From a virus (taxonomy: Duplodnaviria > Caudoviricetes), in IMG/VR virus record IMGVR_UViG_3300035704_000012, positions 1-54,112 of that record: a stretch of DNA of 54,112 nt, one strand, 5' to 3'. The translations under genes were made by a program, and so were the position numbers. Shown here in pieces: positions 11,539-54,112 of the stretch. Below the pieces are notes generated by a model. It was not told the origin of the DNA. It ran no database searches and saw only the letters and a list, made by a program, of their open reading frames with translations. Position 1 is the stretch's first letter. Each line of letters begins with the position of its first letter.

Positions 11539-12021
11539 GTGACACTGCATATCACAGCTAGCATGGTACAAACGTGGTTGGAACCCACGAAGGCTACCAT
11601 CTCCGCTGTCGATCCTGTCTTGGAAGGTCAGATCTCCAGCGAGGTCCTAGGCAGGCTAGCACAGACCTTCACACAGTCAGTAGTAGCGACTTGGGTCGAC
11701 ACTACTACCACACCTGCAGTCGTACAGCAAATCATTGCCATGTATTACGCGGGCTGGTTCTATGATCGTGCCTTCGCAGAGGTCGTCACCGATGAGAGCC
11801 AGACATCTTACGGAGCAACCCTTAGGAACTGGGCATCAACGCTGCTAGCTGACGTGATTCGAGGTGCAGTCGAGCTAGCCGATGTAGTTACAATACCGAA
11901 CGCTGGAGTGACGTTCTATCCCACAGACGCAAGCTCGACGAGGGACGCACTCCGTGCCAATACCGATTGCAACGACTTGTCGTTGGGGCCGGCTAAGTTC
12001 GGAATGAGTAAGGTGTTCTGA
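11539..12021 (+). CDS. Head-to-tail adaptor (Mu gp36-like)
   Basis: Position; TPAVVQQIIAMYYAG motif. Confidence 0.6.
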   Translation: MTLHITASMVQTWLEPTKATISAVDPVLEGQISSEVLGRLAQTFTQSVVATWVDTTTTPAVVQQIIAMYYAGWFYDRAFAEVVTDESQTSYGATLRNWASTLLADVIRGAVELADVVTIPNAGVTFYPTDASSTRDALRANTDCNDLSLGPAKFGMSKVF

Positions 12022-12851
12022 TGCCAGCATCTATGAGGGGCGGCATCAGGTTCGACAACATGGTCAACTTGGGCTACTCGTTTACGCCCTCGCTAGCCAT
12101 GTCCGCTAAGCAGTTCAACAAGCTCGATGTTGACATTCGTTCCTTCCGGGAGCCACTCAAGCGGTCGATCCAACGTGTCATCGCTCCGTCGATCGGCCAG
12201 AACTTCATTTCCAACGGGCGTCCCGAGGGCTGGGCACCCTACGCTAGTGACACTGCCGACATGAAGGCGAGAGACCCCAAGAGCAAGTTCGGTCCTGAGG
12301 ACATGCTTCGCAGGTCGGGGCTCCTGTGGAAGACGATGCAGCAGTACAATATCTGGACCGTGACACAAACGCAGGCTGCAATCCTGAGTCTGCCAGACAA
12401 GATCTGGTATGGTGCGCTTCACCAGGCAGGCTTTGGTATGTCGGCAGCTAGTGTTACACCTGCGAAGGAAGGCAGCTTGTTCTTGTCGCCTTCGGAACTG
12501 AAGGCAGCTGGCGGTGCAGCCAAGGTGTCTATTCCAGCACGTCCATTTGCCATGTTCCAGAATCAGGACATTGACAAGGTGCAGGAGATTTTTGCGGACT
12601 GGTTGCAGGAGCGTGTCGATGCAAGGCTGGCAGGTTACAAGATCGTGCACGGGACGGTGAGGGCTAAGTTATGCCTAACACTGCCAGTGCAGAAGTTGTC
12701 GCCAGTGCCATCTTCAATATCATCCAGGCGCAGGTCATCCCGCTCGGCGTTCAGGTCATGTACTATGGTGACCAGACGATACTTGACAAGACGCCAGCTG
12801 TTTGTGTCTCGCCTGGGAACAAGACACGTGACTACGAAGGTGCATCTCTAG
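12021..12851 (+). CDS. Virion morphogenesis/neck protein (Mu G-like); may effectively end at TTA 12669-12671
   Basis: FISNGRPEGWAP, YGALHQAG and IPARPF motifs. The last 60 codons overlap the next gene. Confidence 0.75.
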   Translation: MPASMRGGIRFDNMVNLGYSFTPSLAMSAKQFNKLDVDIRSFREPLKRSIQRVIAPSIGQNFISNGRPEGWAPYASDTADMKARDPKSKFGPEDMLRRSGLLWKTMQQYNIWTVTQTQAAILSLPDKIWYGALHQAGFGMSAASVTPAKEGSLFLSPSELKAAGGAAKVSIPARPFAMFQNQDIDKVQEIFADWLQERVDARLAGYKIVHGTVRAKLCLTLPVQKLSPVPSSISSRRRSSRSAFRSCTMVTRRYLTRRQLFVSRLGTRHVTTKVHL

Positions 12852-13105
12852 CCACGAAGAACGTATTCGAAACGTACGTGTACGTATACTATGGCAAGAT
12901 CCAAGATGTGCAGGTGAACTTGCATGCAGCGCAGACTTTGGCTGACGCTATCGAGCCTGTAGTGCAAGCAGACATCACACTAGGTGGACTTGTCATTGGT
13001 ACGCTTTGCACGCAGAATGAACCTGGCGTCATCAACAAGATGGGCTCACTGCTGATGGGTAACAGGATGACGTTTGAATCCTTCAGCAAGACGAGGCTCC
13101 CGTAA
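12671..13105 (+). CDS. Tail completion/terminator protein
   Basis: Position; TPAVCV and DITLGG motifs. Confidence 0.6.
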   Translation: MPNTASAEVVASAIFNIIQAQVIPLGVQVMYYGDQTILDKTPAVCVSPGNKTRDYEGASLATKNVFETYVYVYYGKIQDVQVNLHAAQTLADAIEPVVQADITLGGLVIGTLCTQNEPGVINKMGSLLMGNRMTFESFSKTRLP

Positions 13106-13114
13106 GGAGGGTAA

Positions 13115-13456
13115 GTGCCATATCTGGTAAAGGTTGATCATCCCAATGCGGGAGACCAGGACGTCTACATTCACGGTCTGGGTACGTTCCGTAACGGGAC
13201 TGAGACCGAGGTCGACGACGACCAGGTGACACGATTCCGTGTTGCCACAGGAACAACTCAGTCAGGCGTCTTTGACGAAGAAGGCAAGATCGTCGCTCCT
13301 CACAACGAGGATGGTACGTCTGAGACGCGATTCGTGATGGGTGCCGAGCCACACGAGCTTGACATCTTCGGTGTCACGGTCACCAAGAAGGAGGAGAAGC
13401 CTCCTGCCAAGCCGACGGCTCCTGCTCCTAAGGCCGGAGAGGAGGCGAAGTCATGA
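13115..13456 (+). CDS. Hypothetical protein preceding the tail tube gene
   Basis: RBS AGGAGG; ATGA-coupled to the tube gene. Confidence 0.7.
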   Translation: MPYLVKVDHPNAGDQDVYIHGLGTFRNGTETEVDDDQVTRFRVATGTTQSGVFDEEGKIVAPHNEDGTSETRFVMGAEPHELDIFGVTVTKKEEKPPAKPTAPAPKAGEEAKS

Positions 13457-14388
13457 CCTACGGTATGGGTGCGGGCGGCCTGGTTGGTGTCGCCTTCGAA
13501 ACCGTCTCTGGTACCTACACGGTACCGACGAAGTTCATTCCGATCCTCTCCGAGTCGCTGGAGCTCAAGGAACAGAACATCTACCGGACGCCGATTCGTC
13601 AGTCGGCAGCTCGGATCGGTGTCGTGCCAGGTGACTTCTCCGTCGAAGGTTCGATCACGATGGAGGCCCTCGAGGATTGCAGCTTGTACTTTACGGAGTG
13701 CAGTCGCGCGGCGGGGGTCAAGACCGGTACGACACCGAACTTCATCTACACCTACGGCCCGACCTCGGTTGCTGTGCCACCGAAGACTATGTCGATCACC
13801 GTGGTCAGGAACGGTGTCATCTTCGGCTACACAGGTTGCGTCGTTGGTAAGTCGACGTTCTCCGTGAACAACAACCTCATGGAGAACACGTTCGACATCT
13901 TCGGCTTGACCGACGCAAGCCCATCGCCGACGCTGGTGCCTGTCTGGCCGACCTCGGTTCCTTACGGGCCTGGCTCGTGGACGGTTCAGATCCCGACGGC
14001 GACGCAGGTGTTTGACATGGACACCTTCTCGTTCGAGATCGACGATGCAGGACAGGAGAACTTCCGCCTCAAGAACTCGCGCGGTGCACAGTTCGCTAGC
14101 TTCGGTGAGCGGACGTGCCAGATGACGGCCTCCAGGGACTTCCTCGACGCGACCGATTACACGGGCTTCAAGGCCGTGACCGGCCAGGCGATCAAGATCC
14201 TCGCCACCACGGGAGCTAACAACTCCATCCAGTTCGATCTGTTCAACGCAGTCAAGGACGTGTATCAGGTTCCGCTTTCTGGCGTCGGCGACCTGATTCG
14301 CGCAGCCATTACCTACCAGACAGTACTCGACGGCAGTGGTAACGAGTACGACATCGTTTACAAGACGCAGGAAGTCATCACTCCTTAG
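13453..14388 (+). CDS. Major tail tube protein
   Basis: GVAFETVSGT, SESL and YTGCVV pattern; high GC3; position. Confidence 0.85.
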   Translation: MTYGMGAGGLVGVAFETVSGTYTVPTKFIPILSESLELKEQNIYRTPIRQSAARIGVVPGDFSVEGSITMEALEDCSLYFTECSRAAGVKTGTTPNFIYTYGPTSVAVPPKTMSITVVRNGVIFGYTGCVVGKSTFSVNNNLMENTFDIFGLTDASPSPTLVPVWPTSVPYGPGSWTVQIPTATQVFDMDTFSFEIDDAGQENFRLKNSRGAQFASFGERTCQMTASRDFLDATDYTGFKAVTGQAIKILATTGANNSIQFDLFNAVKDVYQVPLSGVGDLIRAAITYQTVLDGSGNEYDIVYKTQEVITP

Positions 14389-14416
14389 CACACAAGATCC
14401 AGAGGGAGGATCTGCA

Positions 14417-14839
14417 ATGCCCAATGCAACAGTTTCTACCGAGTCTCAGCACTTCGACCTCAGCTCCTGTCCTGGCGGTTGGATTGACCTCAAGCGGATG
14501 ACGCATGGTCAGCGACTCCATCGTCAGGACATTGCTATGTCGATGTCCATGACTGCTGACACCAAGCACAAGACGGCGACGATGGGTGTCACGCCGACAC
14601 AGACCAGGGTCGCGCAGTATGAGTTCAAGACCTGCGTCGTCGATCACAATCTCGAGGATGACCAGGGACACAAGCTCAACTTCAACAACCCTTCGGACGT
14701 CGAACGGCTTGACGGCAGGATCGGTGAGGAGATTTCCGAGCTGATCGACACGATGCACAACTGGGAGAGCGACCTCCCAAACTCGGTCGTGAAATCCGAC
14801 GTCGTGTCTTCGGAGCTGGTAAGTCCCGCGAAGAGCTAG
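14417..14839 (+). CDS. Tail assembly chaperone (short form)
   Basis: Between tube and tape measure; RBS GGGAGGA; DHNLED...VERLD motif. Confidence 0.8.
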   Translation: MPNATVSTESQHFDLSSCPGGWIDLKRMTHGQRLHRQDIAMSMSMTADTKHKTATMGVTPTQTRVAQYEFKTCVVDHNLEDDQGHKLNFNNPSDVERLDGRIGEEISELIDTMHNWESDLPNSVVKSDVVSSELVSPAKS

Positions 14840-15063
14840 ACACAGTCGGTTGGGCTTCGGAAGAAGAACAGATAGCTGAGCAGTTGTATGGGCTTACTGT
14901 CATGTGCTTGGAGTTCCACTGTTTGCCTGGGCCCGGAGGTTGGCTTGACCAGGATTCGTTCGTTGCATACGGAATGGATCTGGTCATGATCAGCATCAAG
15001 GCCAAGGAACAGTTGGACCAGCACCAGGCGGAGCTCAATAGGGGCAAAGTTCCTGGGAGGTGA
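14776..15063 (+). CDS. -1 frameshift extension of the tail assembly chaperone
   Basis: In-frame slippery heptamer C CCA AAC at 14776-14782. The -1 frame stays open to TGA 15061-15063 and contains LPGPGGWLDQD. Confidence 0.85.
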   Translation, partial: PKLGREIRRRVFGAGKSREELDTVGWASEEEQIAEQLYGLTVMCLEFHCLPGPGGWLDQDSFVAYGMDLVMISIKAKEQLDQHQAELNRGKVPGR

Positions 15064-22666: not shown

Positions 22667-22948
22667 ATGCAGATCGGTGACTTCCTGTCACTCATTGGCG
22701 GGAGCACTGGTGGATCGGCTATCGTCTTCTTCATCCTATGGATGTGCGGGCTCATCCATACCAAGGCAGCCATGGATGAGAAGAAGGAAGAAATCGCCGA
22801 GCTGAAGGAAACGATCCGACTAGAGCGTGTACGAGGAGACTCGGCGGTCTTGACAGGCCAGATAGTCAGAGACGTTATGACTACCCTCCACAGGGAGATT
22901 GAGCATTTATGTGGAGCATCCGTGAATGGTGGCGATCAAGGGACATGA
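22667..22948 (+). CDS. Membrane protein of the lysis cassette (1 TM + coiled coil); may effectively end at TTA 22907-22909
   Basis: N-terminal TM and helical tail; RBS AAGGAG. Confidence 0.7.
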   Translation: MQIGDFLSLIGGSTGGSAIVFFILWMCGLIHTKAAMDEKKEEIAELKETIRLERVRGDSAVLTGQIVRDVMTTLHREIEHLCGASVNGGDQGT

Positions 22949-23115
22949 AGAGTGACCTAGAAGAGGCTCGTCAGGAACGAGAACTATCACAGCGGCGTTT
23001 GGACGAGGCAAAGATACAGGTAATAGTACCTCTGTCTGCCCTTCGTGAAGAGAATCACATTACAGAACTGGTGCGCAAAGCATTCCAACGTAGACCCAAT
23101 GAGGTGGATAAGTGA
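22909..23115 (+). CDS. Small lysis-cassette protein
   Basis: RBS GGGAG; LREENH motif typical of actinophage lysis modules. Confidence 0.7.
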   Translation: MWSIREWWRSRDMKSDLEEARQERELSQRRLDEAKIQVIVPLSALREENHITELVRKAFQRRPNEVDK

Positions 23116-25905: not shown

Positions 25906-28266
25906 TCAGAGCTGGCCCCAATCTGTTCCGGTTGTGATGTCGACGTCGATGTTAACGTAGTTACCTACGACCAGCTTGCCTGACTTGATCATGTTGTCTA
26001 CGACTATGTCTGATACCTTACCTAGGTCGTTCGGATGGGTCTCGATTAGCATCGAGTCGTGTACGAGGTTACGTACCTGCCCTATGCCCTTAAGAGCTGG
26101 CCTTACCCAAGTGAAAGCCTGGAGGCATGTGTCCGAAGCGATCGACTGAGGTTTGAACGCCAAAGCCTCGTTTAGGATCTCGTGTTTGTTGTCCTTGGTG
26201 ATCAGAGTGAATCGTCGATGTCTTCCGAAACAAGTCGTGAGATCCTTTCCATCCAGGACTGCGCGGCGAGTTTCTTCACGAAAGTCAACAACCCTGGGAA
26301 TGACAGCAAAAAACGCACGCATTCCTCTCTGAGCTTCTGGGACTGACATGCCATGCTCTTCTGCAATGGATTTGGCTTCTCGTCCATATCCGAGTCCGTA
26401 GAAGTATGCCTTGACACGGATCCTCAACTCCTTCATCTGTGCCTTGTCGAGATGTGATACGTCGCCGTAGAGAACACCTGTTAGTTCGTCGAATAGGTCC
26501 CGAGTAGGATCGTTGAAGATGTCACGCAGGTACGGTTCCTGTGCGAGCCAGGTCAGTACACGTGCCTCGATCTGCTTGTAGTCGAACTGTACGAATATGT
26601 TCCCAGGAGTACAAGGCACGAATTGCTTACGGAGTCGCCATCCGCGAGTGATGTTCTGGATGTTCGGGTTTCTGGAACTCAAGCGCCCTGTGGTAGTGCC
26701 GTGAAGTAGGTACGTGGGAAACAGGCGTCCCTTGTACAGCCGAAGTCGAATGCCCTTGACATAGGTACCGTAGGACTTGGCATCTAGTCGGTGCTCTGCG
26801 AGACAGGATAGGAAGTCGTAGTACTCGCCCCATGGCTCGCACTTCTCCAGCAAGTGCTCGATCGTTTCCTTGTCCGTAGTCTTTGCCCACTCGCCCTTCT
26901 GGTTGCGCTTGCGTGGCACTCGGATATGGAATACTTCTTCTAGTACCTCTACGATCTGCTTAGGCGAATTCGGATTGAAGGCGTGACGTCCTGACGTGAG
27001 TTGCATGTCACGACGCAACACAGAAAGACGACGTATGTAAAACCTTTCCAGTTCCGCGTTATAGGGCTTGTCGACTCCGATGCCGTTGAGCTCGGGGTAC
27101 ATGAGCTCGTTGGAGGCTCTGACGAGGAAATCATGAAGGGCTCGAAGTCCAGGCTCCTTCTCCATGAGAGTGGTGAAAAGCTGCCATAGCGCGTATGTAG
27201 CAGCGCAGTCGTAGGCGTTGTAACGGTAAAGGATGTCACGGGGTATTGCTCCATAGCCTACCTTCGGTGATAGGTACTGCTTGATCTCGTCGTCGTAGCG
27301 TGGTGCACCTAGTAGCTCGACGGCTAGGTACTTGAGGCCGTGAATTCCTCGTCGCTCATCGAGGCAGTATGAAGCCAGCATCGTGTCGAACCAGAGACGG
27401 ATTGAGCCCAGGCGATGGAAGAGCCCACCAAGGTCGAACTTTCCATTCTGTGCAATGACGCGGTTGTGAGAGCGAAGGTATTGCCCCAGACGTGACATGA
27501 AACGAATATCGTTACATACCGTTTCGCCGAAGACCACGACTTTGCCGGGAGCATAACCGACTCCGATACAAAGGAGTTTGTAATGCGACGCATGTTCGAA
27601 TGTCACATCCTTGTCTACGTCGGTTTCGATGTCGACAGTGATTGGCGTCATAGGCAGTTCGTCTACTGCCTTGAGAGCCGTCTCTACATCGTCGATGACT
27701 ACGAAGAGCGGCTCGGTCCAGTCATCAGTCGGCCTGAACAGCTTGCCGAAGTCGTTGACTATGGATGGGAAGAAAGCGTCCCCTTTTGGTCGTAGGCAGG
27801 CTGCGGGGTGTAGGGTTGGTATGACTGAAAGTCCAAGCTCCGGTACTTCCCTCGGCGGCCCGACACGTAGCTTCGTGATACCGCCTGAAGTGCCCAGGAG
27901 CGTTCCGGCCGCACTGTTACCCATAGCCACAACCGTTTTGACACCGTGGTCTTGTAGCTCCTGAAGCAGACGGGGCCTACACGAACGTATCGCTGTCTGG
28001 GAGGGCGTCGCATTGTCGGGAGGCCTACAGAGGCAAGCATTCGTGAGTAGGGTGGCGGACCTGTCGATGTGGTAGTGCTCCATGATCTTGTCGAGGAGCT
28101 TACCGGAGACCCCCACAAAAGGACGTCCGAGGCGTGCCTCGTTCGCTCCTGGAGCTTCCCCAAGTACACACAGGCTAGCCTTTTCAGGTCCCTCTGAAGG
28201 AACGAATCGGCCGATGTCATTCAGATCGCACTCCTCACATAGTGCGGCCGGATGCTTCCTGGCCAT
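25906..28266 (-). CDS. polA: Family A DNA polymerase with N-terminal family-4 uracil-DNA glycosylase domain
   Basis: GEAPG, CRPPDN, HPAA (UDG); DIET exonuclease; TTGRLSS, DYKQIEAR, YGLGYG and VHDS (Pol A). Confidence 0.95.
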   Translation of the reverse strand: MARKHPAALCEECDLNDIGRFVPSEGPEKASLCVLGEAPGANEARLGRPFVGVSGKLLDKIMEHYHIDRSATLLTNACLCRPPDNATPSQTAIRSCRPRLLQELQDHGVKTVVAMGNSAAGTLLGTSGGITKLRVGPPREVPELGLSVIPTLHPAACLRPKGDAFFPSIVNDFGKLFRPTDDWTEPLFVVIDDVETALKAVDELPMTPITVDIETDVDKDVTFEHASHYKLLCIGVGYAPGKVVVFGETVCNDIRFMSRLGQYLRSHNRVIAQNGKFDLGGLFHRLGSIRLWFDTMLASYCLDERRGIHGLKYLAVELLGAPRYDDEIKQYLSPKVGYGAIPRDILYRYNAYDCAATYALWQLFTTLMEKEPGLRALHDFLVRASNELMYPELNGIGVDKPYNAELERFYIRRLSVLRRDMQLTSGRHAFNPNSPKQIVEVLEEVFHIRVPRKRNQKGEWAKTTDKETIEHLLEKCEPWGEYYDFLSCLAEHRLDAKSYGTYVKGIRLRLYKGRLFPTYLLHGTTTGRLSSRNPNIQNITRGWRLRKQFVPCTPGNIFVQFDYKQIEARVLTWLAQEPYLRDIFNDPTRDLFDELTGVLYGDVSHLDKAQMKELRIRVKAYFYGLGYGREAKSIAEEHGMSVPEAQRGMRAFFAVIPRVVDFREETRRAVLDGKDLTTCFGRHRRFTLITKDNKHEILNEALAFKPQSIASDTCLQAFTWVRPALKGIGQVRNLVHDSMLIETHPNDLGKVSDIVVDNMIKSGKLVVGNYVNIDVDITTGTDWGQL

Positions 28267-38716: not shown

Positions 38717-39164
38717 TGCGTCGCTCCTTGATCTCGTTGAGTAGGTTGTTGCATCCGATTCCAATGAGCATGTTCTGGATGAAGCGATGAACTACGTAGT
38801 AGTTAGGACGCTTGCACTTCGTATGAATGAGCCAGCCGAAGCGCTCGGTCTTGTGCCACTGGCCGATCGAGGCGACGTACTCCTCACGTTGGGGACCGTC
38901 TTGGAACTTGCCCATGCCACGCGTCTTCTTGCGCTGGTTGTTTAGCCTTGCCCACTCGGTCATGCCGACGATACGGCAGCGACACGACACAGTAGGCCGA
39001 GCGATCACGGCCTCGACCGTAGCGTAAGCGGAAGCGACGATACCTACGGTGTTAGGACGAGTTGTCCGATGACGCCAGTTGTCACTCTGCGCCTCTAGCA
39101 GCGCCGTGGTGAACTGCTCAGCAGCGTCGTTGTCGTCGAAGGACAGTACTACTATCCTAGCCAT
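38583..39164 (-). CDS. Hypothetical protein (possible Zn-binding)
   Basis: RBS GGAGG; CRC and H..C motifs. Confidence 0.65.
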   Translation of the reverse strand: MARIVVLSFDDNDAAEQFTTALLEAQSDNWRHRTTRPNTVGIVASAYATVEAVIARPTVSCRCRIVGMTEWARLNNQRKKTRGMGKFQDGPQREEYVASIGQWHKTERFGWLIHTKCKRPNYYVVHRFIQNMLIGIGCNNLLNEIKERRNANTEPEGATDGTSITIASPDQLVPNAPLDGPVLQAEVPSEHGD

Positions 39165-39324
39165 CCTTCGCCTCCACTAGGTCTCCTTCCCAGCGCTTGC
39201 CGTTGAGCCAGATGATGCAGCGACGCTTGCGCACATCATCCCAGTAGCCTGAGATTTCGCCGAGGTGTACTTCCATGGCAGGAGTATCCTCGGTCTCCCG
39301 TGTCACGTGGTCATCCTTCGGCAT
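39157..39324 (-). CDS. Small hypothetical protein (55 aa, not in the ORF track)
   Basis: MPKDDHVTRETEDTPAMEVHLGEISGYWDDVRKRRCIIWLNGKRWEGDLVEAKDG fills the gap exactly; its ATG overlaps an upstream in-frame TTA. Confidence 0.6.
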   Translation of the reverse strand: MPKDDHVTRETEDTPAMEVHLGEISGYWDDVRKRRCIIWLNGKRWEGDLVEAKDG

Positions 39325-39536
39325 AACGCAGCGCCGCCCTGGTTAAGTACGTGTTCGTAGCCGTCCTGGAAGATGAGGTGCCTCGTCTTCGAGTCGCACT
39401 GCTCAGCTGCTGGATGGTAGTGAACCTGGACAGCGTCGCCGTCTGGGTTCCACTTCGGGTGCCTCTTCGACTTGTCTCTGGCCTGTGCTATGACGACCTT
39501 CTCGTCTAGCGTGGGACTGACGTATGCGTGATTCAT
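39303..39536 (-). CDS. Hypothetical protein
   Basis: ATGA-coupled start (MNHAYVS). Confidence 0.65.
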   Translation of the reverse strand: MNHAYVSPTLDEKVVIAQARDKSKRHPKWNPDGDAVQVHYHPAAEQCDSKTRHLIFQDGYEHVLNQGGAALCRRMTT

Positions 39537-40018
39537 GATGACCTCGCAGTCTTGTAAGCGGCCCAGACCATCTTGCAGAAGATCCGAGTACGGCGCCAGT
39601 GTCGACGTCCGAGCTTGATGGCCTCGAGGTTCCATGCCGTATCGATCTTGTCGAAGCGTTCGAAGTACTCGTCCTCGATGAAGATCGGAGGCTCGTCGAT
39701 CTTGATCGCACGCATCGGACCCGTCTCGGCGACGCTGAAGGTCGCGATGGGCTGAAGGGGAGGAGGTGTACCCAGAGCGTAGGCTTCCACCTGCTCGTGA
39801 ATACGTGTGTCATGCTCGACATGGTCGGACCGGAAGGTGAAGACGTGCTGCTCCACACGGGTGAGTTCGATGACCTCTTGGTAAAGATGGCCCTGTAGCT
39901 CCGTGACCGTCTCGGAGATACCTTCCCAGTGAGTCAGGAGGTTGGCGAACTCGGGTGAGTCGGCGACGTCGATTTCGATCGGGTAGTCGGCGTCGAGAGG
40001 ACAGAGTGTCGTAGTCAT
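39533..40018 (-). CDS. Hypothetical protein
   Basis: Operon-embedded, coding-like codon usage. Confidence 0.65.
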   Translation of the reverse strand: MTTTLCPLDADYPIEIDVADSPEFANLLTHWEGISETVTELQGHLYQEVIELTRVEQHVFTFRSDHVEHDTRIHEQVEAYALGTPPPLQPIATFSVAETGPMRAIKIDEPPIFIEDEYFERFDKIDTAWNLEAIKLGRRHWRRTRIFCKMVWAAYKTARSS

Positions 40019-47114: not shown

Positions 47115-47673
47115 GTAATACTCCCTCTGTTGTAAAATGTAAGGGAGGGGCTCCGACACAAGGCCACCATGGGGGGGAAATGGTAAGGAGCCCCTCCCCT
47201 CGTTCAGGACACCAGTGCCTGGTTTGCCTATCGTCCCTTGCTGACATCCACCAACCTCGGACGAATCGACGACGCTCAGCAGCGTTGTCCCTCACGTGAT
47301 GAACAGACAGCGGTGAAAGGGGATAGCAATCGCTCTTCTCCGCCAAGGAGGCCGGGGCATCTCGTCTTCCTCAGCTGCCCAACACCCGATCCGGTGCATA
47401 GATCGCCGCGACTCGCACTGCCTGTTCAAATCTGATAGAGAGCGAATGTGTCTTGCGGCCCATACGCTCCCTACTGCAGCTCCTGGCTCCTCAGGTCGGA
47501 CTCTATACCGAACTTGACCGAAGACTTCTGTACCTTACCTAAGGGTACGTCGAGGCTAGGTAACCTACCAGGATGTCTTAAGTTGTCAAGTGGCTTGTGG
47601 GCGCCAGTACAGAGGAACTGACGCCCTAGTGAGGTCGTGCGGTCTGACCCGCACGACCCCTGAGTGAAGAAGG

Positions 47674-48117
47674 TCACTCGGCCTCGTGGAAGTCACCGTC
47701 CGCACCCTCGGGCTCGGTGGCCTGGGCCTCAGCGACGGCCGGAACCGGCTCGCTGGCCTCGGTCGTGGTCGCGGTGGCCTTCTCGGCGATGCGGGCCTTG
47801 CGCCTGTCCCACCACGCGACGCCCTCGTCCAGGTCGAGTCCCGGCCGGGTGTTGACGTTGCCGTCGGGCCCACCCTTCTGCGGGTACTCGGTGCCGTCCT
47901 CGGCGTAGTGCTTGACGGGGAATGGGTCCGCCTTGCCGGGGTTGTTGACGAAGGTGTAGAACATCTGCGGCTGCGTGGCCTTGGGGGTCTTGCCCAGCTG
48001 GATGAGCTTGTTCTTCAGCTGGATCGGGGTGACCTTCCCCTCGGGCAGCGAGAAGCGGGTGTTCGGGGCTGCCGTCTCGGCCGCCGTGTTCTCGGTTTCG
48101 GTCGCGGTCTCAGCCAT
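47674..48117 (-). CDS. Putative HTH DNA-binding protein, probably highly expressed
   Basis: Own promoter, RBS AGGAGG, very high GC3; TPIQL...PQMFY motif. Confidence 0.65.
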   Translation of the reverse strand: MAETATETENTAAETAAPNTRFSLPEGKVTPIQLKNKLIQLGKTPKATQPQMFYTFVNNPGKADPFPVKHYAEDGTEYPQKGGPDGNVNTRPGLDLDEGVAWWDRRKARIAEKATATTTEASEPVPAVAEAQATEPEGADGDFHEAE

Positions 48118-48247: not shown

Positions 48248-48460
48248 CTAGCAACTGTCGCAGATGCTCTGCATGTCATTGCCGTACTTGGCGAGCTGTA
48301 CAGCGATGTAGATCGTTCCGATGATGGTCAGCACCGAGAAGATGCAGACTACCCACGCAATGACCGTGCAGGCAATGCTAGTCCGACGCTGGTACTTCAG
48401 CATGGCCACGTCGATCGGGTGGGCCTCGGTGTGCTCTACCGTACCCTGGATGGGCTCCAT
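48248..48460 (-). CDS. Small membrane protein
   Basis: TAATG coupling; one long TM segment. Confidence 0.6.
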   Translation of the reverse strand: MEPIQGTVEHTEAHPIDVAMLKYQRRTSIACTVIAWVVCIFSVLTIIGTIYIAVQLAKYGNDMQSICDSC

Positions 48461-48861
48461 TACTTCTTCTCTCCAGTGGGCTCGCAGACCCACTTCATGA
48501 TGGGCTCTTCGTGAGCAGGAACGGCGTCGACGCTCTTGACGCCGACCTGTACTTGGTGACAGGTCGTCGACGTACTCTTGTCGACGTAGATGCTGTAGCT
48601 GACGCGATCGTTCGGGCCCCACGTTCTGCTGTAGTGGATGTAGTTGCCGTTGTCTTCCTTCTTCCAGCCGTGAGTACCCTCACGGCCCTTGCGTGCCTCG
48701 TTCTCCTCCAGGAAGCAGGCACCACCGATGCCATAGGGAATCGGTAGTTGCGGGTGCTCACGGAGGAAGGTGATCATATCCTCCATCGCTTCGAGCACCT
48801 GCTGGCGAACTTCAGCCTCAGTGTAGGCGAAGTTTACCAAGTCGTCAGGATCGGTAGTCAT
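48460..48861 (-). CDS. Hypothetical protein
   Basis: RBS GAGGAG; TC..VQVG...VPA......W.C motif. Confidence 0.7.
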   Translation of the reverse strand: MTTDPDDLVNFAYTEAEVRQQVLEAMEDMITFLREHPQLPIPYGIGGACFLEENEARKGREGTHGWKKEDNGNYIHYSRTWGPNDRVSYSIYVDKSTSTTCHQVQVGVKSVDAVPAHEEPIMKWVCEPTGEKK

Positions 48862-49112
48862 AAGTTCAGTTCTCCTCGTTGCCACGGCTCTTCTTGTTCC
48901 TTCACACTCTGGATTGCCTTCTCGGCAAAGTATTCCTTCAAGGGTCGAATGCCCAATAGGAACAATGGAATGCCGATCGGTGCACCAATTACGGATCCGA
49001 TCAGCGGGATGGCTACCAGAGTGCAGACGATAGCCAGTACGTACCTACGCGCAAGCGTAGTGTCGAACCGGCTTGAGTGGCTCGAGCCGTCCGGTGTCCC
49101 ATTCGGTACCAT
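48858..49112 (-). CDS. Small membrane protein ending TTA-TGA
   Basis: SVIGAPIGIPLFLLG hydrophobic hairpin. Confidence 0.6.
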   Translation of the reverse strand: MVPNGTPDGSSHSSRFDTTLARRYVLAIVCTLVAIPLIGSVIGAPIGIPLFLLGIRPLKEYFAEKAIQSVKEQEEPWQRGELNL

Positions 49113-51099: not shown

Positions 51100-51151
51100 T
51101 TTGTTACCTCCTTTCCTGACCGACCTCCTTAGAGGCCGATCAGCACTGGAG

Positions 51152-51286
51152 CTAACCATGCATGTACGTCTCGCATGCCTTCTGCAGTTCGTACACGTCT
51201 TCTGCTGTCTCGCCGAAGTGGCACAGATACCCGTCCTCGTTGTGGAGCTCGAGTCCCTCGTCGCCTTCGATGATCTTGAACTTCAT
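51152..51286 (-). CDS. Small hypothetical protein (44 aa)
   Basis: RBS AGGAGG; MKFKIIEGDEG... Confidence 0.6.
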   Translation of the reverse strand: MKFKIIEGDEGLELHNEDGYLCHFGETAEDVYELQKACETYMHG

Positions 51287-51294
51287 GGTTCCTC

Positions 51295-51663
51295 CTACAG
51301 GTGTTGACGTGGAATGTCAGTTTCACACGTGTGACAGTACTCGAATGCCCTATCCCGCGCGAACACGCCCGGATGAATACACTCCACAGGGTCTTCGGTG
51401 TACGAGATGAAGTCGAAGAGCGTGTAGACCAGGCAGTTCGGTCCTTCATCTTGTTCGCCATCGAGCTGCTCGATACCGCAGTCGGTACCTCGAAGGTACG
51501 TGGCGATCTTGCGAACGGCAGCGACTGTCGCTTTCCCGTCGAACTCCTCTTTCGACGCCATAGCGCGGTAAGAACGCGCAACGGCCTCTTCCCATACCGC
51601 GAGTGGCGCTTCGCGGTAAAGCGCCTGATACCTTGCGGCCTCGATGTCGTCACTGTTCGACAT
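51295..51663 (-). CDS. Hypothetical protein with C-terminal Zn motif
   Basis: RBS GAGGAGGAG; CIH...CHTC. Confidence 0.65.
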   Translation of the reverse strand: MSNSDDIEAARYQALYREAPLAVWEEAVARSYRAMASKEEFDGKATVAAVRKIATYLRGTDCGIEQLDGEQDEGPNCLVYTLFDFISYTEDPVECIHPGVFARDRAFEYCHTCETDIPRQHL

Positions 51664-53719: not shown

Positions 53720-53750
53720 GAGCGTACCTATATCCTATTCGATTGTCAAG
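53720..53750 (-). promoter_or_regulatory. Promoter for the 53672 gene
   Basis: TTGACA-17 nt-TACGCT. Confidence 0.7.
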
Positions 53751-53983
53751 ATGCATAGTACTTGTTAGTACTAGTTAGTACGTATGTAGTATGTACTCTA
53801 TACGTACTAGTACTACTAACAACTACACGTTCCGTTAACTGAACGATACTCGTTACAGTCTGTACATAGATTCGACTTACGTAGTTTATATCCGCCGCTG
53901 AACTTTCGATCTGCTTCAGCATCAGCAGCGTCGGAGTTGAAGTACGACTTACGATCTGATCGTATATGTACGAGATGTTGAGT

Positions 53984-54112
53984 ATTGTTACGACGCTCAG
54001 TTGTTTCGTATTGATTACGAACTGATTCGAGCAATGTATTACTCTTCTCTCAGTAGTAATGTATTTGATTGTCAAGTATCTGTTGTTGTTGTTGATTTTT
54101 TTTTTTTCTTAT
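53984..54112. repeat. Terminal direct repeat, right copy
   Basis: Matches 1-127, with T12 in place of T10. Confidence 0.95.

What the first reader, a model, noticed from the sequence alone, without database searches (positions are those of the whole stretch)
12660..12680. TTA codon sits where the stop should be: recurrent TTA-TG gene junctions (junction 1 of 4)
Seen: the neck gene reads AAG TTA TGC, and the A of TTA (12671) is the A of the next gene's ATG, the geometry of the TAATG/TGATG couplings elsewhere in this genome. After the TTA the ORF runs 60 implausible codons over the next gene. The same in-frame TTA-TG occurs at 22907 (+), 39326 (-) and 48863 (-). By-eye scanning found no in-frame TTA in terL, portal, the 894-aa protein, TMP, Dit, PolA or primase (about 4,900 codons), although CTA is common. 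Known: UUA is the rarest codon in Streptomyces and related actinomycetes, read by the developmentally regulated bldA tRNA. Inference: UUA acts here as a stop or conditional stop, or as a tRNA-sensing stall that controls re-initiation or frameshifting into the next gene. That would tie tail completion and lysis to host state; alternatively the host has lost or reassigned UUA. Caveat: long overlaps without TTA exist here too, in the other frame.
Basis: partly seen in the sequence, partly recalled or inferred. Interest (0 to 1): 0.88.

Follow-up and report, generated by a model that had tools for sequence, protein, structure and literature searches.

The report
Leucine codon TTA ends phage genes
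In this uncultured soil phage and its relatives the leucine codon TTA is never used inside genes and sits exactly where related phages have a stop codon overlapping the next gene's start, so it most likely ends translation there, something published so far only for mitochondria and plastids.

Summary
Observation confirmed. In 77 curated genes (16,405 codons) in-frame TTA occurs four times, always on the next gene's ATG. At 12669, 22907 and 39326(-) no stop follows. At 48863(-) TGA follows directly. In 21 long genes TTA counts are 0, 73 and 32 in phases 0, 1 and 2.

In IMG/VR relatives the same neck junction reads TTA-TG, TAA-TG or TGA-TG, with at least three TTA/stop switches on the tree. Other gene families show further TTA-TG junctions. 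Relatives L001-L060 hold 9 TTA in 129,799 aligned codons, at most one of them internal. Post-TTA extensions look non-coding.

TTA ends genes only at tight stop/start junctions or directly before a real stop: 0 of 11 elsewhere, against 211 of 430 standard stops.

Best reading (0.6): UUA is not decoded in the unknown host, probably a soil actinobacterium, and ends translation. How the peptide is released is open. No tRNA or release-factor gene is in the phage.

The bldA/host-state idea is untested. Frameshift, bypass and artefact readings are not supported.

Earlier notes of this scan report the same habit in other uncultured phages. I did not test them.

The parts
12021..12671 (+). Neck / tail-completion gene (216 aa, Mu gpG-like) ending at the TTA
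   Evidence: Pfam Phage_tail_S covers residues 43-195 = profile 20-147 of 148. PHROG 26 'tail completion or Neck1'. Coding score +0.26 per codon. Homologues stop at this point.
12669..12671 (+). In-frame TTA in the stop slot, sharing its A with ATG 12671 (junction 1)
   Evidence: relatives have TTA, TAA or TGA here in the same TRATG geometry.
12672..12851 (+). 59-codon continuation of the neck frame plus TAG; not coding in this frame
   Evidence: Coding score -0.29 per codon. Length and sequence differ in 85%-identical relatives, 59 against 81-82 codons. Arg/Ser-rich translation.
12671..13105 (+). Downstream virion gene (144 aa), start ATG 12671
   Evidence: N-terminus MP(N/L/P)TASAEVVA is conserved from the same Met in 13 loci. 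Its frame is closed by TAA 12665-12667. SD-like GGTGAGGG lies upstream.
22667..22909 (+). 80-aa membrane/coiled-coil gene of the lysis block ending at TTA 22907-22909 (junction 2)
   Evidence: The one homologue found (L019) has AAG TAA TG in the same geometry.
22909..23115 (+). Downstream 68-aa gene, start ATG 22909
   Evidence: DUF7620 match is below the Pfam cut-off (24.7 against 27 bits). A holin (PF23778) and a GH25 lysin follow.
39324..39536 (-). 70-aa early-region gene: start ATG 39536 (ATGA overlap with 39533..40018), ending at TTA 39326-39324 (junction 3)
   Evidence: Relatives L023 and L024 have TAA TG and L027 has TGA TG at the end of the homologue.
39157..39324 (-). Downstream 55-aa gene, start ATG 39324
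48858..49112 (-). 84-aa gene whose last sense codon is TTA (48863-48861), followed directly by TGA (junction 4, TTATGA)
   Evidence: Conserved as TTA TGA in L030/L031.
48460..48861 (-). Downstream 133-aa gene, start ATG 48861

Best explanation
UUA is not decoded as an amino acid in this phage-host system. A ribosome translating the upstream gene ends its work at UUA, so TTA-TG is the working equivalent of the TAA-TG / TGA-TG stop/start overlap.

Shown:
- TTA is purged from gene bodies.
- TTA alternates with TAA and TGA at homologous junctions.
- What follows it in frame is not under coding constraint.

Inferred:
- The host lacks a usable tRNA-Leu(UAA).
- The peptide is released at UUA, either by a release factor 2 that accepts UUA (as in organelles) or by a slower stall-and-release route.

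In this clade the codon is used only where the next start codon lies within one base, or where a true stop follows. This suggests a weak or context-dependent terminator and not a general fourth stop.
For: (1) Window: 4 in-frame TTA in 16,405 codons, all terminal. Phase counts are 0/73/32.

(2) Relatives L001-L060: 129,799 unique aligned codons hold 9 TTA. Five lie before the real start, three are junction TTAs, and one possible internal case is in a 35%-identical tape-measure match. CTA = 1,322 and TTG = 1,077 in the same set.

(3) More distant relatives of the same portal family use TTA as Leu. L098 has 43 in 3,321 codons, 19 of them aligned to Leu. L106 (55.5% GC, like the window) has 9 in 2,802. 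Arthrobacter phage Wollypog (59% GC) has 10 in 15,672 codons, all internal.

(4) Neck junction over 14 rows: TTA-TG in 9 (window, L001-3, L006-8, L011, L013), TAA-TG in 2, TGA-TG in 1, and ATG 7 nt before TGA in 2.

(5) Tree of 42 neck proteins: the TTA label needs 5 changes, at least 3 of them forced by well-supported branches. TGA-bearing L047 is nested among TTA rows.

(6) Of 120 aligned homologue clusters, 12 run past the common end, and all 12 continue with Leu then Cys or Trp. Where I held DNA, that Leu is TTA in 5 of 5.

(7) Other gene families: the homologue of 11539..12021 ends ...KVF then TTA-TG in L043 and L010, where 40-odd others have TGA, TAG or TAA. The homologue of 13115..13456 ends TTA-TG in L002/3/30/31. 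The PolA homologue ends DWGQL-TTA in L026 and L027, where the window has its stop.

(8) Annotation-free scan of NNATG frame switches with no stop within 3 codons: TTA 10, and the other 13 sense NNA codons together 12.

(9) Extensions hold 2 TTA in 318 codons. That matches the out-of-frame rate and not the in-frame rate.

(10) No tRNA in the window or in 60 loci, apart from one tRNA-Gly. No RF-1, PTH2 or Pth domain in the phage.

(11) Precedent: organellar RF2 with a Ser204 change reads UUA (PMC12574857, passages read).
Against: - The host is unknown, so neither tRNA loss nor an altered release factor is shown.
- There is no protein, RNA or ribosome data.
- Use is restricted by context. 0 of 11 TTA ends lie away from a start or stop, against 211 of 430 standard stops, and 0 of 37 gapped junctions in the window use TTA. 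A general stop codon would not show this, and I have no tested reason for it.
- Shine-Dalgarno strength, RNA structure and the base at -2 of starts do not set TTA junctions apart.
- The gene models are my own.
- Relatives overlap in contigs, so counts are not fully independent.
- The record is estimated to be 86% complete, so a tRNA or factor gene could lie in the missing part.
Confidence: 0.6

Rival explanations
1. Conditional stop or sensor of a bldA type. The host has a tRNA-Leu(UAA) that is available only in some growth states. Without it ribosomes end or stall at UUA. With it they read through, extend the upstream protein and cover the next start, which would tie neck, lysis and early genes to host state.
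For: - UUA control by the bldA tRNA, UUA pausing in the adpA upstream ORF a few bases before the main start, and UUA-triggered bypassing in the phiHau3 terminase are published (PMC10732093: outline, section 3.4 and passages).
- The host may be an actinobacterium. TerL best hits are actinophages at 33-35% identity. The lysin's nearest Atlas clusters are commonest in Actinomycetota, but scores of 0.84-0.90 make this only a lead.
- The sample is soil.
Against: - The exclusion of TTA, at most 1 internal in 129,799 codons, is far stricter than in Arthrobacter phage Wollypog, which has 10 scattered in 15,672.
- TTA swaps freely with constitutive TAA and TGA between close relatives. That is not expected of a conserved regulatory switch.
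- The junctions affected differ from lineage to lineage.
- In Streptomyces TTA codons are biased to gene starts, not ends (PMC4255298, passages).
Confidence: 0.17
2. Tolerated stop loss. UUA is read slowly as leucine, and the upstream proteins really carry 6-82 extra residues.
For: The standard code gives open frames beyond each TTA. Gene callers in public databases called the long forms, for example 298- and 299-aa clusters.
Against: - Only TTA takes the stop slot, in at least 8 independent cases. Other single-step sense codons (CAA, GAA, AAA, TCA, CGA, GGA, AGA) do not.
- Extensions vary from 6 to 82 codons, change between 85%-identical phages, score as non-coding, and carry further TTAs at the out-of-frame rate.
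Confidence: 0.08
3. Programmed recoding at a hungry UUA: a frameshift or hop into the next gene (giving a fusion protein), or a shift onto a nearby out-of-frame stop, as proposed for AGA/AGG in human mitochondria.
For: - Hungry codons promote shifts (PMC10732093 introduction, passages).
- The downstream frame is the -1 frame at TTA-TG.
- In the window the +1 frame hits TAA after two codons.
Against: - P-site codons differ at each junction (AAG, ATG, CGC, TTG, TTC, CAT, GCG), so there is no slippery re-pairing.
- The +1 TAA is absent in L001.
- Relatives keep the two genes apart with ordinary stops.
- None of the 120 listed homologues exceeds 299 aa, although lengths up to 378 were searched and a fusion would be about 361 aa.
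- No conserved RNA structure.
Confidence: 0.05
4. Sequencing or assembly error, or miscalling at a modified base (the phage is said to carry a 7-deazaguanine cluster): the true codon would be TAA or TGA.
For: The window comes from one soil run that is held only as contigs, so I could not inspect reads.
Against: - The same TTA-TG is present in independently assembled IMG/VR contigs from several metagenomes, with different flanking codons.
- 88 TGATG and 16 TAATG sites on the + strand are read normally.
- An error cannot explain the absence of in-frame TTA from gene bodies.
Confidence: 0.02

Closest known systems
UUA = stop in organelles: labyrinthulean (Thraustochytrium) mitochondria (NCBI table 23), peDinoflagellate plastids (UUA/UCA), Marsupiomonadales mitochondria (UUA/UUG)
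   Same: A leucine codon is absent from gene bodies and found where homologues have stops. No cognate tRNA is seen. Table 23 ends the neck gene at residue 217. PMC12574857 (abstract and passages) links UUA termination to a Ser204 change in organellar RF2.
   Different: - Those are organelle genomes, in which over half of the genes can end in the new stop. Here it is a tailed phage of a free-living soil bacterium, with 3 of 77 genes, and only at tight stop/start junctions or directly before a real stop.
- The release factor could not be examined.
- That paper calls its plastid case the first sense-to-stop change outside mitochondria.
Streptomyces UUA/bldA system, the adpA upstream ORF, and UUA-triggered bypassing in the phiHau3 terminase (PMC10732093)
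   Same: UUA is a near-unused codon whose shortage of tRNA halts ribosomes. In adpA the UUA sits a few bases before the main start codon. Phages exploit it.
   Different: There UUA is decoded as Leu when the tRNA is present, or is skipped together with a 7-10 nt gap inside one conserved gene. Here it separates two genes and alternates with TAA and TGA in relatives, with no interrupted gene.
Stop/start overlap coupling (TAATG, TGATG, ATGA)
   Same: Identical geometry and Shine-Dalgarno placement. The window has 2 TAATG, 2 TGATG and 3 TTATG junctions.
   Different: The overlapping 'stop' is a sense codon of the standard code.
Unassigned codons in bacteria
   Same: A codon disappears from genes when its tRNA is lost.
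   Different: As I recall, those codons are not reported to mark gene ends.
Loss of tRNA-Leu(TAA) expression as phage resistance in Synechococcus WH5701 (PMC11726456; one passage read)
   Same: Shortage of UUA decoding in the host limits translation of phage genes rich in UUA.
   Different: That phage still uses UUA as Leu. Here a whole phage clade has purged it and re-used it at gene ends.

Membership tests
Sense-to-stop reassigned code (UUA = stop, table 23-like) | Codon absent from conserved positions inside genes | tested here: met
   0 in 9,395 codons. 4 terminal in 16,405. At most 1 internal in 129,799 aligned codons of relatives.
Sense-to-stop reassigned code (UUA = stop, table 23-like) | Codon stands where homologues have standard stops | tested here: met
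   Neck junction. Homologues of 11539..12021, 13115..13456, 22667..22909 and 39324..39536. PolA end.
Sense-to-stop reassigned code (UUA = stop, table 23-like) | Used as terminator in all gene-end contexts | tested here: not met
   0 of 11 TTA ends lie away from a start or stop, against 211 of 430 standard stops. 0 of 37 gapped junctions in the window use TTA.
Sense-to-stop reassigned code (UUA = stop, table 23-like) | No cognate tRNA-Leu(UAA) | tested here: inconclusive
   None in the phage or in 60 related loci. The host is unknown.
Sense-to-stop reassigned code (UUA = stop, table 23-like) | Release factor with altered codon-reading motif | not testable with these tools
   No RF-1 domain in the phage. 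No host genome identified.
bldA-type regulatory UUA | UUA inside a coding sequence, read as Leu when the tRNA is present | tested here: not met
   No internal TTA. Sequence after the TTA is non-coding in that frame.
bldA-type regulatory UUA | Host with a growth-phase-regulated tRNA-Leu(UAA) | not testable with these tools
   Host unknown. Only weak leads point to Actinomycetota.
UUA-triggered translational bypassing (phiHau3 terminase type) | UUA plus a short gap interrupts one conserved gene, and coding resumes to give a single protein | tested here: not met
   The two sides are separate genes with ordinary stops in relatives. No homologue longer than 299 aa among the 120 listed.
Hungry-codon shift onto an adjacent stop (human mitochondrial AGA/AGG model) | Conserved out-of-frame stop one base before or after the codon | tested here: not met
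   At TTA-TG the +1 codon is TAT and the -1 codon is NTT. The TAA two codons on in the window is not kept in L001.
Canonical stop/start overlap coupling | The upstream terminator overlaps the downstream ATG by one base, with a Shine-Dalgarno site upstream | tested here: met
Canonical stop/start overlap coupling | The terminator is TAA, TAG or TGA | tested here: not met
   TTA at 12669, 22907 and 39326(-).

The most novel reading that the evidence does not exclude
UUA is a true fourth stop codon of an uncultured soil bacterial lineage, the host. It would be read by a release factor 2 altered as in organelles, after loss of tRNA-Leu(UAA). This would be the first sense-to-stop change of the genetic code in free-living bacteria and their viruses. 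This phage clade would show an early or weak stage, in which the new stop is used only at coupled junctions.
Probability: 0.33. Interest if true: 0.92.

Novelty: new variant of a known kind. Interest (0 to 1): 0.8.

Why it matters
If UUA ends translation here, the genetic code of some soil bacteria and their phages differs from table 11 in a way that current tools miss:
- Gene callers extend these genes by up to 82 false residues; public clusters of 298-299 aa are examples.
- As I recall, code-prediction tools that infer the amino acid meaning of codons cannot see a sense codon turned into a stop.

It would also give a natural system for studying three things: how a sense codon is captured by the termination machinery outside organelles, how phages follow a host's loss of a tRNA, and why a weak terminator is tolerated only at stop/start overlaps.

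In practice, proteins predicted from such phages should be trimmed at in-frame TTA.

In my six literature searches (listings and abstract starts) no listed paper reported UUA as a terminator in bacteria or phages.

Tried and rejected
DNA search of the neck region against cultured phages found nothing. A protein search with the neck protein gave one weak Klebsiella phage hit.

Host search:
UASB270 is the same contig as L098, a TTA-using relative.
- The listing of cluster members gave no names.
- The Atlas search gave only leads.

Reads: the look-up of sequencing runs listed one DNA run, a soil metagenome that is the probable source and is held as contigs. No RNA holder was listed. I did not use read laying, because contigs of the source sample cannot test a consensus error.

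Features that do not set TTA junctions apart:
- RNA structure. Junction 1 lies in the loop of a hairpin (z = -2.5), but the other three junctions do not (z = +0.98, -1.03, -0.69), and no consensus structure exists across 9 relatives.
- Shine-Dalgarno match length: 4.6 for TTA, 4.9 for TAA and 4.4 for TGA junctions.
- The base at -2 of start codons: T in 24 of 77 starts.

Noisy counts not used:
- The long-ORF count and the score-only census picked up antisense and pre-start frames. I replaced them with the homology-based counts.
- A first self-trained scan of Wollypog was likewise replaced by counts on its annotated genes.

ORFs rejected as genes:
- 47471..47677(-), with three TTAs, is an intergenic region with a hairpin and a TTGACA-type promoter.
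- 51129..51653(-) has a negative coding score.
- 53746..54075(-) is AT-rich and of doubtful coding status. Its TTA at 53838 remains unresolved.

P0007 has a longer C-terminal tail that does not begin with Leu. I did not explain it.

For 7 of the 12 extended homologue clusters I saw only the protein, so the junction Leu could be TTA or CTA.

Supplements of the papers were not opened. Those of PMC10732093 may list phage TTA positions that bear on novelty.
Full report
WHAT THE WINDOW IS. The window is the whole held record, one contig of 54,112 bp. CheckV estimates it to be 86% complete. It comes from a soil metagenome and has about 56% G+C. Virion and lysis genes lie on the + strand up to about 24.5 kb. 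Replication and other genes lie on the - strand beyond that. It has no DNA match among cultured phages. Its large terminase is 33-35% identical to those of Arthrobacter, Gordonia, Mycobacterium, Curtobacterium and Microbacterium phages. It has no tRNA gene.

At 12669-12671 a TTA lies in frame with ORF 12021..12851, and its A starts ATG 12671 of ORF 12671..13105. The upstream gene is a Mu gpG-like tail-completion/neck protein. Its Pfam domain is complete by residue 195, matching profile positions 20-147 of 148 (PHROG 26). The 59 codons after the TTA translate to an Arg/Ser-rich string and score -0.29 per codon in a codon-usage test. The gene before the TTA scores +0.26, and the overlapping downstream gene +0.27.

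The other three sites exist as described, with two corrections:
- The gene at junction 3 starts at ATG 39536, in an ATGA overlap with the gene before it, so its other TTA (39557) lies upstream of the start.
- Junction 4 is TTA TGA, an ordinary ATGA overlap whose last sense codon is TTA.

TTA IS EXCLUDED FROM READING FRAMES LIKE A STOP CODON. In 21 long genes (9,395 codons) TTA occurs 0, 73 and 32 times in phases 0, 1 and 2. Positional base frequencies predict about 57 in-frame TTAs. CTA (125), ATA (61), GTA (151) and TCA (88) are all in normal use. In 77 hand-curated genes (16,405 codons) the four junction TTAs are the only in-frame ones. Three other ORFs that contain TTA are not convincing genes.

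RELATIVES PUT STOP CODONS IN THE SAME PLACE. Five IMG/VR scans gave 108 related loci. The neck junction over 14 rows reads as follows:
- TTA-TG in the window, L001-3, L006-8, L011 and L013.
- TAA-TG in L005 and L012.
- TGA-TG in L010.
- ATG seven bases before TGA in L004 and L009.
In every row the downstream protein starts at the same conserved Met.

A tree of 42 distinct neck proteins needs five changes of the TTA label, at least three of them forced by well-supported branches. Within one clade of 19 rows (support 100/100), seven TTA rows fall in three separate subclades, and TGA-bearing L047 is nested among TTA rows.

Among 120 aligned homologue clusters from the large protein collection, 12 continue beyond the common C-terminus. 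All 12 continue with Leu followed by Cys or Trp, for example ...ARLGL stop against ...ARLGL-L-C.... Where I held the DNA, that Leu is TTA in 5 of 5.

The same substitution appears in other gene families:
- The homologue of 11539..12021 ends with the conserved ...KVF and then TTA-TG in L043 and L010, where the other rows have TGA, TAG or TAA.
- The homologue of 13115..13456 ends TTA-TG in L002/3/30/31, and TTA-G-TTG in L043.
- The PolA homologue ends DWGQL-TTA in L026 and L027, exactly where the window has its stop.
- The homologues of the window's junction 2 and 3 genes end in TAA-TG or TGA-TG.

A scan that uses no annotation looked for NNATG frame switches with no stop within three codons. 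It found TTA 10 times, and the other 13 sense NNA codons together 12 times.

THE CLADE-WIDE PURGE. In loci L001-L060, tblastn matches to window proteins cover 129,799 unique codons with 9 TTA:
- Five lie just upstream of the real start, for example TTAGTG, where TAG is the upstream stop.
- Three are junction TTAs.
- One sits in a 35%-identical tape-measure match.
CTA and TTG each make up about 1% of the same codons.

More distant members of the same portal family use TTA freely, mostly aligned to Leu. Some of them have the same G+C as the window, such as L106 and L101. Arthrobacter phage Wollypog (59% G+C) has 10 TTA in 15,672 annotated codons, all of them inside genes. So base composition does not explain the purge.

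WHAT FOLLOWS THE TTA IS NOT TRANSLATED SEQUENCE. Extensions range from 6 to 82 codons and differ between 85%-identical phages. They contain further TTAs: 2 in 318 codons, plus one in L002 seen. That matches the out-of-frame rate of 0.3-0.8% and not the in-frame rate.

A RESTRICTION I CANNOT EXPLAIN. TTA ends genes only in three settings: where the next start overlaps it or lies one base away, or where a true stop follows at once (TTA TGA, TTA TAA, TTA TAG). Over unique junctions of the relatives, 0 of 11 TTA ends fall in any other context, against 211 of 430 standard stops. In the window, 0 of 37 gapped junctions use TTA, but 3 of 7 xxATG overlaps do. TGA is also uncommon at free gene ends (30 of 211), where TAG dominates (119 of 211). 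If UUA were read by RF2, a general weakness of RF2-type stops might contribute, but it does not account for a zero. Shine-Dalgarno strength, local RNA structure and the base at -2 do not differ.

MECHANISM. The phage has no tRNA and no RF-1/GGQ, PTH2 or Pth domain, so the behaviour must come from the host. The host could not be identified. Weak leads point to Actinomycetota. So does the avoidance of A-ending codons in two-codon boxes, such as AAA 22 against AAG 322; that this is an actinobacterial trait is my own knowledge.

I commit to this reading (0.6): UUA is not decoded, and translation of the upstream gene ends there. The release step is inferred. It could work through an RF2 that accepts UUA, for which organelles give a precedent (PMC12574857, abstract and passages; table 23), or through a slower stall-and-release route.

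Rivals:
- A bldA-like conditional stop (0.17).
- Tolerated read-through (0.08).
- Frameshift or hop (0.05).
- Artefact (0.02).

COMPARISON WITH WHAT IS KNOWN. The closest mechanisms in print are the organellar UUA stops and the Streptomyces UUA system with phage terminase bypassing (PMC10732093; outline, section 3.4 and passages). The finding meets two defining features of a sense-to-stop code: the codon is absent inside genes, and it stands at homologous stops. It fails one, use in all gene-end contexts. Two could not be tested, the host tRNA and the host release factor. It fails the tests for bypassing, for a shift onto an adjacent stop, and for bldA-type internal codons. My six literature searches (listings and abstract starts) showed no report of UUA as a terminator in bacteria or phages.

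EARLIER NOTES OF THIS SCAN. Searches list follow-up notes on other uncultured phages that report the same habit. Some of those phages are said to have a sixth to a third of genes ending in TTA. Two notes name candidate host groups, soil actinobacteria and a myxobacterial branch, with an altered RF2 and no tRNA for UUA. I did not test any of these notes. They are leads and not evidence, but they raise the option that this window is a mild case of a wider code change.

LIMITS.
- Loci from the same contig overlap. I removed duplicates by sequence context, but related contigs are not independent.
- No reads, RNA or protein data were available.
- Supplements of the papers were not seen.

Noticed in passing
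window 12630-12705 (+): Junction 1 sits in the apical loop of a long imperfect hairpin (-36.1 kcal/mol, z = -2.5 against shuffles). No consensus structure was found across 9 relatives, so it is probably lineage-specific.
   Followed up: partly
window 25906-28266 (-): The family A DNA polymerase carries an N-terminal uracil-DNA-glycosylase-superfamily domain (residues 23-173) ahead of the 3'-5' exonuclease and polymerase domains.
   Followed up: no
window 47440-47700 (-): Intergenic region with a G+C-rich hairpin after the TGA of gene 47674..48117 and a TTGACA-type promoter-like site. The ORF 47471..47677, which has three in-frame TTAs, is probably not a gene.
   Followed up: partly
window 53730-54112 (-): AT-rich end of the record, with an A13 run, CAA repeats, two CTTGACAAT promoter-like sites and a doubtful 109-aa TTG-started ORF. 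That ORF holds an in-frame TTA at 53838 that is not at a junction. Its coding status is unresolved.
   Followed up: partly
relatives L001-L060, gene ends: Stop codon use depends strongly on context. At ends not adjacent to a start, TAG = 119, TAA = 62 and TGA = 30. TGA dominates the overlaps (104 ATGA-type, 33 TGATG).
   Followed up: no
L036 221-290 (-): The only tRNA in 60 related loci is a tRNA-Gly that ARAGORN reads with anticodon ACC. As I recall, that anticodon is unusual for bacteria.
   Followed up: no
L109-L113: Distant portal relatives (30-54% identity) lie on contigs binned into SAR202, Dehalococcoidia and Ktedonobacterales MAGs and 'Bacterium UASB270'. The UASB270 contig uses TTA freely as Leu.
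   Followed up: partly
window 14336-15063 (+): The start of the tail-assembly-chaperone gene is unclear: the start I guessed at 14402 is not a start codon. A second frame is open over 14728-15063 before the tape-measure gene, the usual place of a chaperone frameshift.
   Followed up: no
I did not check it. I considered it only as a possible source of base miscalls and rejected that.
   Followed up: no
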